Both the position numbers and the translations under genes were made by a program. From Rheinheimera sp. (GTDB lineage Bacteria > Pseudomonadota > Gammaproteobacteria > Enterobacterales > Alteromonadaceae), in the NCBI RefSeq assembly GCF_036568245.1, contig NZ_DATCSY010000371.1, positions 1 through 46,124 of the forward strand: a DNA stretch of 46,124 nt. The letters run 5' to 3'. The number at the start of each line of letters is the position of its first letter. The first letter of the stretch is position 1. Below are positions 39,029 to 45,854 of this stretch, piece after piece. The notes under the pieces were generated by a model. The model ran no database searches. It saw only the letters and a list, made by a program, of their open reading frames with translations, and was not told the origin of the DNA.

Positions 39029-40280
39029 ATGTCTGATTACTCCTTTGTGCTCAATGTTAGCGCTATCAATAATAAACGCTTTTTCTACCGGGTGATTGGT
39101 TATCTGCTGGCCTGCCTGGCGGTCGCCCAATTTACCACTATGGCAATCAGTTTTATGTTGCACGACAAAGCATTCTGGAGCTTTTTGTTGTCTGCGCTGG
39201 TTACCGCTGGTGCGGGTGCCGCACTGCTTGTGCGTTCAGGCGGTGCGACAGAGCTGAAAAAGCGTTATTTGTTTTTGCTGACCACACTTTGCTGGTTATC
39301 GGTATGCGCTTTTGCTGCACTGCCGTTGTACCTGAGTTTACCGCAATTGAGTATGACTGATGCCTGGTTTGAAGCGGTGTCCGCTATTACAACGACAGGC
39401 TCTACCGTGCTTAGCGGACTGGATACTATGCCCAAAGCTGTGCTGCTTTGGCGCGCTATTTTACAATGGATTGGTGGAATTGGCATTATTGTGATGGCGA
39501 TAGCAATATTACCGGCATTGAAAATTGGCGGCATGAAGCTGTTTAAAACGGAAAGCTCGGATATTTCTGAGAAGATTCTGCCACGCAGCAGCCATTTATC
39601 CGGTTCTATTTTGCTGGTCTATCTGGCCATCAGTGCTGGTGCAGCGCTTAGTTACTATGTCGGTGGCATGTCATGGTTTGATGCGCTGACACATGCCATG
39701 ACATCTGCTGCTACCGGCGGTTTTGCAAACTATGACGCCTCGTTTGGCTATTTCAATGATAAGCCCTGATTGCTGTGGTTAAGCAGTGTGTGGATGGCAC
39801 TGGCTGCTTTGCCGTTTGTGCTGTTTGTTGGTATGGCGCGGGGGGATCGATGGGCACTGTTGCGCGATCCGCAGGTTAAAGCCTTTATTGCTATTGTACT
39901 GGTGGCCGCCATACTGCTGGCGCTGTACCAGATAGCGCACAATGACCGGGACTGGTTTGCAGCATTGACCCACAGTGTGTTTAATGTGGTGTCTGTTATT
40001 ACCACCTGTGGGTACGCCTCTGAGGACTATACAAAGTGGGGAGCGATGGCGGTGGTATTGTTTTTTTACCTGACATTCAGCGGTGGTTGTTCCGGTTCAA
40101 CTTCGGGTGGGCTGAAAATTTTCCGAACCCAGCTGGCTGGGTATTTACTACTGAAGCAGCTGAATTTACTGATCCACCCTAATGCAGTATGGACACGTAA
40201 ATACGGCAGCAAAAAGCTCGACGATAGTTTGCTGGGGGCGGTATTAGCGTTTGCCTTTGTCTATTTTGCCACTGTTGCTG
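39029..40280 (+). pseudogene. trkH: TrkH-type K+ uptake protein, interrupted and truncated
   Basis: FEAVSAITTTGST, QWIGGIG, ATGGF and GGCSGSTSGGLK motifs. In-frame TGA at 39767-39769; TrkH-like sequence stops near 40280 before the last pore loop. Confidence 0.8.
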
Positions 40281-41153
40281 CTGGCCCTGATTGTACCGGT
40301 ACTGATTGCATTGCTGCTGTTACCGGGGCGCGATTTATTAACAACCACGGATGTTGCCATGTTACAGCTGCTATGGGTAACCTGGATGGCACAGCAAGCC
40401 GGACAGCGCTGGGCCGTGATTACTACGGTAAACAGTGTACTACTGCTCGACTGGTTTTTTGTTGAACCCTATAACACCTTATATGTGCACCAGATCGACT
40501 ATCTGATCACCTTTATTGTGATGTTGCTGCGGTCTATCTCACATGACTTACGTACACCGCTGGCAACGATTATGGGAGCATCCAGTATGCTGGCCGATAA
40601 AGAGCTGACACTCAGCCGAGAAGCCATACAGCAACAGGCCGAGAATATTTTTCAGCAAAGCAGTTTACTCAGTCGTCACTTTGACAAAGTGATGGAGTTA
40701 AGCCGGGTGCAGCAGCCACAGCAGACACTGACGCTCGCAGAGCTTGATGTAGCAGATATCATTTCCGCCGCAATTAGCCGCCGGGCGCAGCTGTTAAATA
40801 GCTTGCCACTGCAGACAGCGCTAGCGGGCTCTCAGTGTGTCGCCGACAGCACCTTGTTAGAAATAGCACTGGCAAATATGCTGGAAAATACCGTGCGTCA
40901 CGGCGCCGCGCCCTTTATGGTTTGTTTTGACCTATCAGAGGGGTATTACAGTCTGGAAGTCAGCAATGCCCCGGCACCGCAGCAACAGAGCCAACGTGAC
41001 AGCGGCACCGGGCTTGGTACTGCTATTTGCAAGGCGGTAATGCAGCTGCATAACGGCCAGTTTACGTTGCAAACCTCAGTGGACCATACCATATCGGCTA
41101 AGCTACGCTGGCCACAGCAGATAACAGATGTCACGGAGCTACAGCATGGCTGA
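40273..41153 (+). pseudogene. kdpD: KdpD-like sensor kinase remnant (DUF4118 TM region + HisKA + HATPase)
   Basis: DWFFVEPYNTL..YLITF runs directly into RSISHDLRTPL; GTGLG present. No convincing own start, and the TM4-HisKA linker is missing. Confidence 0.6.
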
Positions 41154-41829
41154 GTCAATACTGGTACTGGAAGATGATCCGGCTATGCAGAGCTTCCTGA
41201 CTACACTGTTAAACAGCCAGCAGTACCAGGTGCAGAGCTTCAGCGCCGGCTTGCCGGCATTACAGTATCTGGTTATGCAGCCGGCAGCGCTTATTTTACT
41301 TGATCTGGGGCTGGCAGATATGGATGGTCAGCTCTGGCTGCAGCAACTGCGCAGCTGGTGCGACACACCTGTCATCGTGATATCGGCCCGCCACAGTGAG
41401 CAGGATAAAGTTCAGGCTCTGGATAACGGTGCAAACGATTATGTCACCAAACCGTTCAGTGCAGCTGAGCTGATGGCCAGGGTACGCGCAAACCTGCGCA
41501 AAGTGGCGCCCGGCCAGCAGTTGTTTGTGTTTGGCGATGTGCAGCTGGATCCGATAAGCCGCTCTGTACAGCGCGGCGGGCAACAAGTCCACCTGACTAA
41601 AACCGAATATGACATCTTGCTACTGCTGATGCGGCATTGTGACAAGGTACTGACACATAACCAGATCCTGACGCAGGTTTGGGGTAAGGCTTATGTCGAC
41701 AGGCCGGAATATGTGCGGGTGCACGTGGCGCAGTTGCGGCAGAAGCTGGAGGCTAATCCGGCAGCGCCGATGTATCTGAAAACAGAACCCGGCGTTGGCT
41801 ACCGCCTGGCAGCCAGCATACCGGGTTAA
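41146..41829 (+). CDS. kdpE: KdpE-like OmpR-family response regulator
   Basis: LDLGLADMDG, KVQALDNGANDYVTKPF, HLTKTEY, RVHVAQLRQKLE.NP and TEPGVGYRL. Confidence 0.88.
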   Translation: MAESILVLEDDPAMQSFLTTLLNSQQYQVQSFSAGLPALQYLVMQPAALILLDLGLADMDGQLWLQQLRSWCDTPVIVISARHSEQDKVQALDNGANDYVTKPFSAAELMARVRANLRKVAPGQQLFVFGDVQLDPISRSVQRGGQQVHLTKTEYDILLLLMRHCDKVLTHNQILTQVWGKAYVDRPEYVRVHVAQLRQKLEANPAAPMYLKTEPGVGYRLAASIPG

Positions 41830-43924: not shown

Positions 43925-44143
43925 AAATCTCCCGGATATCATTAATCTTATAGTTTGGTCCTTAAAACTATCCTGATCTGTTTGCTGTGACAAACCTGTT
44001 AGCGGCAAACTGAAGGTTTTAAGCGGCATAGCTCTAAAAGCAGGTGTGTTTGCAGTATTAAGGTATGGCTAATATTTGTACAGTTATGCGACTGATTGCC
44101 TATACTTAACACCCGGCTGTTTATCTGTATGGAGGATGGCGAC

Positions 44144-44701
44144 ATGTTAAGGCACTACTTTATCAGTGACGACCTAACCGATTTTGTGAAAATAGAATAT
44201 GAACTGCAGCAGCACGGTATCGATGCGCCACAGGTTCATGTACTGAGTGACAATGATGCTGCGATAGAACTACACCGTTTACATGAAGTTGCACCTGTGC
44301 TGAAAAGCGATGTTGTGCACGCAACAGAAATTGGCGCAGTCATTGGCGTGATAGCGGCTTTGTTTATCCTGGCCCTGGCCTATATTCTTGGCTGGACAGA
44401 GACAACAGCCGGTTGGATCCCTTTTATCTTTCTGGCTGTAGTAGTGCTTGGCTTCTGTACCTGGGAAGGCGGCTTTATTGGTATTCAGCAGCCCAATACC
44501 CACTTCAAGCGCTTTCAGGGAGAACTACAGCAGGGGCAACATGTGTTGTTTATCGATATTGAACCAGCGCAGGAAGCAGTGCTTAACGGCGTGATACAAC
44601 ATTACCCGAAACTGAAAAGTGTCGGCCAGGGCGAGGCTACACCGGCCTGGGTTGTGCGCAGTCAGCAGTTATTCCGCCGTTTTGTAAAAGTGATGCCCTA
44701 A
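44144..44701 (+). CDS. Conserved two-TM hypothetical protein
   Basis: GGAGG RBS, two hydrophobic helices and a GFCTWEGG motif. Confidence 0.75.
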   Translation: MLRHYFISDDLTDFVKIEYELQQHGIDAPQVHVLSDNDAAIELHRLHEVAPVLKSDVVHATEIGAVIGVIAALFILALAYILGWTETTAGWIPFIFLAVVVLGFCTWEGGFIGIQQPNTHFKRFQGELQQGQHVLFIDIEPAQEAVLNGVIQHYPKLKSVGQGEATPAWVVRSQQLFRRFVKVMP

Positions 44702-44725: not shown

Positions 44726-44756
44726 AAACAGGCTGGCTATTACTGCCAGCCTGTTT
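44726..44756. terminator. Bidirectional terminator
   Basis: aaacaggctggc-tattact-gccagcctgttt. Confidence 0.8.
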
Positions 44757-44766
44757 TGTCTTAGCC

Positions 44767-45327
44767 TCAGGCACTCAGGCTGTCGAAGATATGCAGGAAA
44801 GTCGGCGTTTGCTGAATATGCAGATTCACTTTCAGTCGCCGTGCGATGTCCTGTGCGCTGATTACGCCCCGGATCTGATGGCTTTCGCGGTCGATGACGA
44901 CGCAGTGTTGTTCGCCACTGGATTGCAGTGTATTAACAACATCAGCGATACTGCATTGTTTTAACTGTTGGTACGCCAGCGCTTTAATGCGCTCACGCGG
45001 GCGCATCAGATCGGCAACCAGAATATCATCACGGCTGTCACCGAAGGCTACTCGGCGCATAATGGCCTGATCTGACAACTGTTCCAGATGCAGTAAGCCG
45101 ACCATCTCACCGTCGTTATCAACAACCAGTTTTAACTTGCTTTGTTCTTGTTGCATCATTTCAAGCGCATCACTGGCAGAACTGGCGGCGCTGATCATAT
45201 TAGGCAGGCTGTGTTTGAAATCAGTAACAACAGACAGCGCAGGTGAACTCAGAGTAGTATCGTCAAAATCAGCTGGTTGTACTAAATGGTCAATAGCTTC
45301 AACAGCATATAAGGCTAACGTTTTCAT
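44767..45327 (-). CDS. Stand-alone CBS-pair (Bateman) protein
   Basis: LVVDNDGEMVGLL, VADLM.P and VVID..IRGVISAQDI. ATG 45327 follows GAGGA. Confidence 0.88.
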   Translation of the reverse strand: MKTLALYAVEAIDHLVQPADFDDTTLSSPALSVVTDFKHSLPNMISAASSASDALEMMQQEQSKLKLVVDNDGEMVGLLHLEQLSDQAIMRRVAFGDSRDDILVADLMRPRERIKALAYQQLKQCSIADVVNTLQSSGEQHCVVIDRESHQIRGVISAQDIARRLKVNLHIQQTPTFLHIFDSLSA

Positions 45328-45432
45328 GGTATTCCTCACAAACCGGCACGCAGAGGCCATGCCGGAACAATTATTTCTTGGTAAATAAACAGCCTGGCTG
45401 TTCAGAATTAAACAAATTGTGAGGTAAGTACC
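45328..45432 (-). promoter_or_regulatory. SD-sequestering RNA structure linking the leader ORF to the CBS gene
   Basis: mRNA GGUA-CUUA-CCUCACAA (45432-45417) pairs with UUGUGAGG-AA-UACC (45341-45328) and encloses two small hairpins. Confidence 0.7.
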
Positions 45433-45731
45433 GGTGGCGCACGCGCCTGTTGCAGTGTCAGACTGGCAGCAATACCGGCAGCTATCAGTTGCTCAGGTGA
45501 GTTATTGCCGTTGTGGGGGAGTTGCTTGTTAGCGGTAACCGGCAAAACCGGTTGTGGCTCGTCAGTGCCATCCTGTGTTACATCAGAGGTACACTGTGGT
45601 ATTTCAGGTGTGACGGCATGGAATTGTGTATCGGCCAGCGGTGACAGCCGTGCATCGTGCACTGCAAAGGCTTGTGGCGTACACAACAAGCTTAGATACA
45701 GTATTAAGGCAAAACTACTTAGCCAACGCAC
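45408..45731 (-). CDS. Leader peptide with Sec-type signal peptide and a RAPP arrest motif near the C-terminus
   Basis: MRWLSSFALILYLSLLCTPQAFA, then a low-complexity spacer, then QARAPP 7 codons before the stop. TAAGG lies upstream of the GTG. Confidence 0.72.
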   Translation of the reverse strand: MRWLSSFALILYLSLLCTPQAFAVHDARLSPLADTQFHAVTPEIPQCTSDVTQDGTDEPQPVLPVTANKQLPHNGNNSPEQLIAAGIAASLTLQQARAPPVLTSQFV

Positions 45732-45854
45732 AACGGGTAACCTTATTAAACCGATATTGATCTAAATCAAATATGCTGGCTGTTTACAAAATATGCAAGG
45801 CTGACCGCCTAACAATTGCGACAAATTGCACAATTTCACTGTTAAGAGGTTTAG

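What the first reader, a model, noticed from the sequence alone, without database searches (positions are those of the whole stretch)
44767..45731. Secretion-signal + RAPP ribosome-arrest leader controlling a CBS-domain gene by translational attenuation
Seen: a 107-aa uORF with a Sec-type signal peptide, a disordered spacer and QARAPP (RAPP codons 45443-45432). The nucleotides right after the arrest codons (GGUA.CUUA.CCUCACAA, 45432-45417) are complementary to the CBS gene's SD and pre-start region (UUGUGAGG.AA.UACC, 45341-45328): 8 perfect bp plus 4 more, closing over two inner hairpins (aacagc/gctgtt and ccggcatg/cgtgccgg). Known: RAPP/RAGP/RGPP motifs are the arrest sequences of SecM- and ApdA/ApdP-type monitoring peptides, whose stalling is relieved by translocation force and which usually regulate protein-localisation genes. 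Inference: a ribosome stalled at RAPP would cover the anti-SD and switch on CBS translation when export of the leader is slow. That would couple Sec/envelope status, or another signal, to an adenyl-nucleotide-sensing protein. I know of no described RAPP-CBS system.
Basis: partly seen in the sequence, partly recalled or inferred. Interest (0 to 1): 0.88.

Follow-up and report, generated by a model that had tools for sequence, protein, structure and literature searches.

The report
Export-sensing stall leader shared with secDF
A small gene with a predicted export signal and a known ribosome-stalling motif sits in front of a CBS-domain gene and likely switches it on when protein export or membrane energy falters; the pairing is already in a published dataset, but here a copy of the same switch also sits in front of a spare export-motor gene pair.

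Summary
A 107-aa leader (45731-45408) with a signal-peptide-like start and RAPP precedes a stand-alone CBS-pair gene. Such a leader was found at 121 of 130 CBS loci (34 of 36 genera), against 5 of 3000 random windows. The post-RAPP bases pair with their own ribosome-binding site better than with foreign ones (-11.0 vs -7.0 kcal/mol, one locus per genus). A modelled stalled ribosome eases opening of the site in 76 of 116 loci (control 15).

The claim that no RAPP-CBS link is described fails: the Fig. 4B source data of Fujiwara 2025 (PMC12992588) list 266 such leaders, 11-fold enriched. This scan also reported the system on two other genomes.

Two additions. (1) The genome holds a 52%-identical copy of the cassette (promoter, leader, anti-SD layout) before a recently duplicated secDF2, which points to export as the input. 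(2) An Asp/Glu patch is fixed 36-45 residues before the arrest Arg in CBS and secDF leaders (115/121, 29/29) but not in cyoA or copper-receptor leaders (0/8), near where membrane voltage pulls engineered chains.

Stalling, regulation and CBS function are untested. New member of a known kind.

The parts
45770..45798 (-). Putative promoter, -35 at 45798-45793 and -10 at 45775-45770, 17-nt spacer, probably sigma70-type
   Evidence: TTG-N20-YAYNNT motif upstream of 28 of 30 same-genus CBS leaders and 26 of 26 secD2 leaders, about 1 expected in shuffles. RNA contigs of two studies end at 45741/45742 (weak hint). Not called by the consensus scan.
45408..45731 (-). Leader ORF, 107 aa, predicted ribosome-arrest peptide
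   Evidence: conserved at 121 of 130 loci; synonymous bias; no Pfam family.
45663..45731 (-). Predicted Sec signal peptide, residues 1-23 (Arg n-region, hydrophobic core, A-F-A site)
   Evidence: Sequence; hydrophobic stretch starts 80-93 residues before the Arg (5th-95th percentile), best 10-residue hydropathy at least 1.95 in all 121. No SignalP run.
45558..45584 (-). Asp/Glu patch (D50, D54, D57, E58), 47-39 residues before the arrest Arg, followed by a hydrophobic position at -34 (L63)
   Evidence: D/E in 51-67% of leaders at -43, -40 and -39, against 0-11% at every position from -35 to -1; at least 3 D/E in -45..-36 in 115 of 121.
45432..45443 (-). RAPP codons (R97-P100), predicted stall site
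   Evidence: 110 RAPP, 9 RGPP, 2 RSPP among 121 leaders; P-site and A-site Pro by analogy with ApdA/ApdP (PMC10951233).
45417..45432 (-). Anti-SD strand (8-bp core 45424-45417)
45386..45404 (-). Inner hairpin 1 (variable in sequence among relatives)
   Evidence: alignment.
45343..45365 (-). Inner hairpin 2 with a conserved 7-nt loop, directly 5' of the SD
   Evidence: 91% of cells paired, 4 of 9 pairs with changes on both sides; no Rfam match.
45328..45341 (-). SD and pre-start region of the CBS gene
44767..45327 (-). Stand-alone CBS-pair (Bateman module) protein, 186 aa, with short N- and C-terminal extensions
   Evidence: PF00571; model pLDDT 83.9; generic CBS-pair matches.
44726..44756 (.). 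12-bp inverted repeat after the CBS stop, likely a terminator shared with the convergent gene
   Evidence: Read from the sequence; not called by the terminator scan.

Best explanation
This is a conserved leader gene whose RAPP motif likely stalls its own ribosome, and the stalled ribosome would unmask the ribosome-binding site of the CBS gene until export of the leader, probably through a membrane-energy-dependent step, pulls the chain free. Step 1, shown by sequence: promoter motif, signal-like N-terminus, Asp patch, RAPP, anti-SD, SD. Step 2, inferred from ApdA/ApdP and the Alteromonas secDF2 leader (about 85%): arrest with Pro in the P and A sites, breaking the anti-SD helix and allowing CBS translation. 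Step 3, inferred (about 70%): release depends on Sec translocation, because a copy of the same cassette was placed before a newly duplicated secDF2. Step 4, hypothesis (about 30%): the Asp patch is the handle on which membrane potential or SecDF pulls. Step 5, weakest: the CBS pair is an adenine-nucleotide-binding regulator whose partner is unknown.
For: Leader at 121 of 130 loci in 34 of 36 genera. Own-RBS pairing beats swapped partners: -10.5 vs -7.0 kcal/mol in 82 loci outside the Rheinheimera-like group, 0 of 100 swaps as good, with the signal peaking at the end of RAPP; one locus per genus -11.0 vs -7.0 in 200 of 200 draws. A footprint at RAPP lowers the cost of opening the RBS by at least 2 kcal/mol in 76 of 116 loci, against 15 of 116 for a footprint 10 codons upstream. 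Paralogous leader at G000:C374:6916, 52% identical, directly before secD2-secF2. Two leader copies in 41 of 50 genus genomes. Of 29 second copies examined, 26 precede secD, 2 precede secF alone and 1 precedes a secF remnant. Both copies share the promoter motif. secD2 is 78% identical to the yajC-linked secD1 and 66-67% to the single secD of sister genera; the 2 sister secD genes checked follow yajC with no leader. At least 3 D/E at -45..-36: CBS 115/121, genus secD2 26/26, fused-secDF leaders 3/3, cyoA 0/6, copper receptor 0/2. The same SD-unmasking logic is shown experimentally for the A. naphthalenivorans secDF2 leader (PMC10987492, passages). A D5 segment is pulled by membrane potential with a peak at L+n of about 50 (bioRxiv 310698 passages; PMC6028853 passages).
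Against: No stall, release or reporter was measured. RAPP alone is not sufficient for arrest (PMC7897499 passages; PMC12992588 Discussion). The window's helix persists with a +12 footprint edge, and 40 of 116 loci show under 2 kcal/mol relief. The own RBS is in the best 5% of foreign ones for only 49 of 121 loci. In the 39 Rheinheimera-like loci only 3 beat all upstream windows. The anti-SD helix is 69% paired in the genus alignment, and the count of doubly changed pairs is not above shuffles (143 of 500). Some RAPP-to-ATG distances reach 631 nt. The patch lies at about -48 to -39 from the A-site Pro, slightly short of the engineered peak and overlapping a shoulder attributed to ribosome repulsion. 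The negative controls are few (8 leaders) and are transmembrane-type. The CBS gene has no conserved neighbours linking it to export, and 39 of 40 distant homologues have no leader.
Confidence: 0.68

Rival explanations
1. Same arrest switch, but the Asp patch only stabilises or tunes the stall by touching the ribosome exit surface, so the leader reports general Sec capacity and not membrane voltage.
For: MifM residues at the tunnel exit stabilise arrest, probably through uL23 (PMC6037786 abstract). The patch ends sharply at about -36, near the tunnel mouth. Simulations assign the short-length D5 signal to repulsion from rRNA.
Against: Acidic chains near the exit are predicted to be pushed out, not held. 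The patch tracks with cleavable-signal, secDF-type leaders.
Confidence: 0.3
2. The leader senses a divalent cation (Mg, Ca or Mn) through its Asp patch, as CruR senses copper, and the CBS protein regulates a metal transporter.
For: Asp-rich cluster. The top structural row is the CorB/CNNM CBS pair (Z 12.1, rmsd 2.6, 121 aligned). Many RAPP leaders precede metal genes.
Against: The Asp residues are not fixed at single positions (best 52%). There is no conserved Cys/His, and no DUF2946 match. The Z score is within about 1 of unrelated CBS pairs. No transporter neighbours. The same patch precedes secDF.
Confidence: 0.1
3. The stall is largely constitutive: it serves translational coupling or tethers the mRNA at the translocon so that the CBS protein is made near the membrane, with little signal response.
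For: Weak predicted switching in about a third of loci and long spacers in some. A cis-localising role of SecM is recalled, not checked.
Against: Lineage-specific anti-SD pairing is kept across 34 genera, which constitutive coupling would not need.
Confidence: 0.1
4. The ORF is an ordinary small secreted protein and RAPP or the pairing is coincidence.
For: The overall fold z-score is only -1.57.
Against: 121 of 130 vs 5 of 3000; 11-fold enrichment in published data; the spacer is unalignable between genera while RAPP is fixed.
Confidence: 0.02

Closest known systems
RAPP uORFs upstream of 'CBS domain-containing protein' in Fujiwara et al. EMBO J 2025 (PMC12992588), Fig. 4B source data
   Same: Same class: 266 RAPP vs 94 AAPP uORFs, 11.1-fold, adjusted p 5.9e-103. 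Rows such as WP_068233441.1, WP_132581548.1 and WP_166836641.1 are by-eye orthologues of this leader. Row WP_008219386.1, upstream of SecD, is a by-eye homologue too.
   Different: Listing only: the main text has no 'CBS', and no test, RNA switch, acidic patch or CBS/secDF paralogy appears in the sections I read (13, 15, 27). The Appendix PDF and three archives were too large to read and may hold more.
uDF_RQH_Enterobacterales (RGPP leader of secDF2, Alteromonas naphthalenivorans; PMC10987492)
   Same: Signal, spacer, RAPP-like motif, and a stem-loop masking the downstream SD, opened by arrest (shown experimentally). Three leaders before fused secDF genes in this family carry the same Asp patch.
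   Different: The target is a cytosolic CBS protein, not a translocon part. Sequence similarity to the fused-secDF leaders is at background.
ApdA/ApdP and SecM (PMC7897499, PMC10951233)
   Same: RAPP-type arrest core; downstream induction through SD exposure.
   Different: No sequence homology tested beyond the motif; not upstream of secA, secDF or yidC.
VemP (PMC11470409, passages)
   Same: Monitors SecDF; elements in the spacer tune release. VemP-like leaders (motif recognised from memory) precede 15 of 18 divergent secD2 genes in this family.
   Different: Different arrest motif and longer spacer; its tuning residue is Arg-85, not an acidic patch.
CruR/CutF copper-responsive leaders (PMC9426467, PMC9973294; search listings, and passages in PMC12992588)
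   Same: Exported leader with an arrest motif controlling a non-Sec gene.
   Different: No conserved Cys/His and no DUF2946 match here.

Membership tests
RAPP/RGPP leaders upstream of diverse genes (Fujiwara 2025) | Small ORF (<300 aa) with RAPP/RGPP near the C-terminus | tested here: met
   107 aa, 7-residue tail; tails of 1-10 residues in 121 leaders, under a filter of at most 12.
RAPP/RGPP leaders upstream of diverse genes (Fujiwara 2025) | N-terminal localisation signal | tested here: met
   Hydropathy and A-x-A site; no dedicated predictor.
RAPP/RGPP leaders upstream of diverse genes (Fujiwara 2025) | Downstream gene class enriched for such leaders | tested here: met
   CBS class listed, 11.1-fold; 121 of 130 loci.
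RQH/ApdP-type Sec monitoring substrates | Encoded upstream of secA, secDF or yidC | tested here: not met
   The window copy precedes a CBS gene; only its paralogue on C374 precedes secD2F2.
RQH/ApdP-type Sec monitoring substrates | Stem masking the downstream SD that overlaps the stalled ribosome | tested here: met
   Computational only; marginal at a +12 footprint edge in this window.
RQH/ApdP-type Sec monitoring substrates | Elongation arrest at RAP/P | not testable with these tools
   Needs toeprinting or profiling.
RQH/ApdP-type Sec monitoring substrates | Arrest released by translocation | not testable with these tools
   Indirect support from the secDF2 paralogue only.
CruR/CutF (DUF2946) copper leaders | Conserved Cys/His metal motif or DUF2946 domain | tested here: not met
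   Cys at most 15% and His at most 23% at any position; no Pfam hit.
CBS-pair (Bateman) proteins | Tandem CBS fold | tested here: met
   PF00571; Z 12.1, rmsd 2.6, 121 aligned.
CBS-pair (Bateman) proteins | G-h-h-S/T-x-x-D nucleotide-site motif (recalled) | tested here: inconclusive
   Repeat 2 intact (G154, S157, D160: 100, 90, 84 of 100 loci). Repeat 1 is conserved in most relatives but reads H80/Q83 in the window protein. Binding untested.
Ribosome-bound CBS proteins (PDB 9zni, 9e6q) | Specific homology beyond the CBS fold | tested here: inconclusive
   E 7e-7 to 6e-5 by profile and Z 10.4 at rank 17, at the level of generic CBS pairs.
sigma32 promoters | CTTGAA and CCCCAT boxes (consensus recalled) | tested here: not met
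   Heat-shock genes of this genome show both boxes; the leader promoter lacks the C run.

The most novel reading that the evidence does not exclude
These leaders are natural membrane-voltage sensors: an Asp patch fixed about 36-45 residues from the arrest site is pulled through SecYEG by membrane potential or SecDF, so PMF loss prolongs the stall and co-induces a spare SecDF and a stand-alone CBS protein that acts as an unrecognised partner in the export or energy-stress response. The whole promoter-leader-RNA switch is a portable cassette that was copied from the CBS gene to rewire a new secDF2.
Probability: 0.25. Interest if true: 0.8.

Novelty: new member of a known kind. Interest (0 to 1): 0.45.

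Why it matters
Fujiwara 2025 leaves open what force releases RAPP arrest when the target is not a Sec gene (Discussion). This locus makes that testable. One genome carries two sister leaders, one on secDF2 and one on a CBS gene, so their responses can be compared directly. The position-locked acidic patch gives a single mutational test of whether the charge-driven pulling seen in engineered constructs is used in nature. It also gives a first functional lead for a widespread uncharacterised CBS family (114 of 400 class genomes).

Tried and rejected
Rfam found no RNA family above noise (2 matches, E about 2). Pfam and NCBIfam gave nothing for the leader. A consensus scan found no promoter or terminator on the coding strand; the promoter came from conservation. 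sigma32 control was considered and rejected for the CBS copy. Neighbourhoods gave no functional partner, in the family (part of the output was cut) or among 77 neighbours of distant homologues. Structure searches and the protein atlas returned only generic CBS pairs, so links to CorB or ribosome-bound CBS proteins are not supported beyond the fold.

My first genome scan for other RAPP leaders missed the secD2 paralogue because its tail of 15 residues exceeded the 14-residue filter, so it is not an exhaustive census. The idea that cyoA leaders share the acidic patch was rejected (0 of 6). A profile of non-genus CBS leaders scored all test sets weakly (at most 15 bits) and shows no homology to fused-secDF leaders. 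The 'best acidic window' statistic has a tie-break towards -42 and is not used. The careful tree did not finish; the quick tree needs 2 label changes and is weakly resolved, and no AU test was run.

RNA contigs bridge leader and CBS gene in 4 of 4 runs from 2 studies, but contigs cannot show a single transcript or strand, and no DNA control run was laid. Ismail 2015 was not held; it is cited only through. Literature searches found no paper testing a RAPP-CBS leader, an acidic patch in such leaders, or the Rheinheimera paralogy; subscription papers are not covered.

Full report
OBSERVATION. The window ends with a GGDEF fragment, a 107-aa ORF (45731-45408, minus strand) and a 186-aa CBS protein (45327-44767). 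The ORF has a basic-hydrophobic-A-F-A start, a low-complexity spacer and RAPP at residues 97-100 (45443-45432). Named homologues of the CBS protein place the genome in or near Rheinheimera.

CONSERVATION. The CBS gene was found in 35 of 36 same-genus genomes and 107 of 201 family genomes. I examined 30 genus loci and 100 of the 106 matches from other genera. Of these 130, 121 have a leader: 110 RAPP, 9 RGPP, 2 RSPP, in 34 of 36 genera. The same test passes 5 of 3000 random windows. Codon variation shows selection on the peptide. Ten of 15 named loci also have the leader, including Methylophaga, Methylophagaceae and Cocleimonas. In a class-wide sample 114 of 400 genomes have a homologue; of 40 of those 116 matches fetched, only 1 has a convincing leader. 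So the leader belongs to one subfamily.

RNA SWITCH. The 24 nt from the Pro codons onward pair with their own RBS better than with swapped ones: -10.5 vs -7.0 kcal/mol in 82 loci, and -12.9 vs -10.4 in 39 Rheinheimera-like loci, 0 of 100 swaps as good in each. The signal peaks at the end of RAPP. With one locus per genus the figures are -11.0 vs -7.0. A footprint on RAPP lowers the cost of opening the RBS by at least 2 kcal/mol in 76 of 116 loci (5 long spacers left out), against 15 for a footprint 10 codons upstream. Against this: only 49 of 121 loci rank their own RBS in the best 5%; the window's helix survives a +12 footprint edge; and in a 29-sequence genus alignment the anti-SD helix is 69% paired, with the count of doubly changed pairs not above shuffles, while hairpin 2 is 91% paired. 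A promoter motif is conserved in 28 of 30 genus loci and lacks the C run of this genome's heat-shock promoters. RNA contigs bridge leader and CBS gene in 4 runs from 2 studies, and two end at 45741/45742. This is a weak hint, not proof of one transcript.

ALREADY IN PRINT. Fujiwara et al. 2025 (PMC12992588; I read the abstract, sections 13, 15 and 27, and searched and read parts of supplement 8) report RAPP leaders before diverse genes. Their Fig. 4B source table lists CBS proteins with 266 RAPP vs 94 AAPP uORFs, including by-eye orthologues of this leader. The main text does not mention CBS, and the Appendix could not be read. Two earlier notes of this scan describe the system on other genomes.

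A SISTER CASSETTE ON secDF2. A row in that table showed a homologue of this leader before SecD. The window's genome has one: C374:6916, 52% identical, directly before secD2-secF2, separate from the housekeeping tgt-yajC-secD1-secF1. Two copies occur in 41 of 50 genus genomes. Of 29 second copies examined, 26 precede secD, 2 precede secF alone and 1 precedes a secF remnant. The promoter motif is shared, and the anti-SD and hairpin layout looks the same by eye. secD2 is closer to its own secD1 (78%) than to the single secD of sister genera (66-67%), and the two sister secD genes checked follow yajC with no leader. The two genus leaders are far closer to each other (mean score 146) than to sister-genus CBS leaders (41). 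The simplest history, inferred and not tested on a rooted tree (one search is weak), is that the older CBS cassette was copied onto a new secDF2. A switch useful for SecDF feedback most likely responds to export.

THE ACIDIC PATCH. Aligned on the Arg, otherwise unalignable leaders show D/E at 51-67% at -43, -40 and -39, at most 11% from -35 to -1, and 70% hydrophobic residues at -34. At least 3 D/E in -45..-36 occur in 115 of 121 CBS leaders, 26 of 26 genus secD2 leaders and 3 of 3 fused-secDF leaders, but 0 of 6 cyoA and 0 of 2 copper-receptor leaders, which are hydrophobic there (leaders were found at 6 of 8 and 2 of 22 control loci). Engineered D5 segments are pulled by membrane potential with a peak at L+n of about 50 and a shoulder below 45 attributed to ribosome repulsion (bioRxiv 310698 passages; PMC6028853 passages). 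The natural patch spans about -48 to -39 from the A-site Pro, so it is near but short of the peak. An exit-surface contact as in MifM (PMC6037786 abstract) is a serious alternative. I formed this idea; a later look-up showed another scan note with the same idea for a different target, which is not independent evidence.

THE TARGET. The protein is a stand-alone CBS pair (pLDDT 83.9) with only generic structural matches, an intact motif in repeat 2 and a degenerate one in repeat 1 in this genome, and no conserved neighbours. Nucleotide sensing is inferred from the fold.

VERDICT. Real and conserved. It works like the RQH/ApdP monitors, shown for the Alteromonas secDF2 leader (PMC10987492 passages and section 12), but it is not a member by target. 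It is a listed, untested member of the broader RAPP-leader class. The secDF2 sister cassette and the position-locked acidic patch were not found in my searches and make the input directly testable. Interest 0.45.

Noticed in passing
G000:C374:6916-3705 (L176): Paralogous RAPP leader with the same promoter motif and anti-SD layout before a second secD-secF pair, 78% identical to the housekeeping secD.
   Followed up: yes
L151, L190, L157: The second leader precedes secF alone in two genomes and a short secF C-terminal remnant in a third, suggesting partial loss of secDF2.
   Followed up: partly
L200-L214: 15 of 18 divergent secD2 genes in other genera have a VemP-like leader (motif recognised from memory), many with an acidic cluster further upstream; the other 3 (fused secDF) have RAPP/RGPP leaders.
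   Followed up: partly
L260-L265, L268-L269: cyoA and copper-receptor RAPP leaders have a hydrophobic segment where CBS and secDF leaders have the acidic patch; the -45..-30 zone may be a class-specific force element.
   Followed up: partly
window 45343-45365: The loop of hairpin 2 is nearly invariant in the genus CBS copies, differs in secD2 copies, and contains bases complementary to the SD; possible protein site or alternative pairing.
   Followed up: no
window 45612-45731: The first 40 residues of the leader are much more conserved (about 63-71%) than the rest (28-35%), even between paralogues, which is high for a signal peptide.
   Followed up: partly
L044-L048, L107, L109-L111, L161, L162, L164, L167, L171: CBS orthologues without a detectable leader, including all four sampled from genus g33; natural controls.
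   Followed up: no
window 39029-41829: A TrkH-like potassium uptake gene and a KdpD-like kinase appear split or truncated next to a KdpE-like regulator (names recalled from the translations).
   Followed up: no
window 44096-44701: Convergent 201-aa predicted membrane protein with no confident family match.
   Followed up: no
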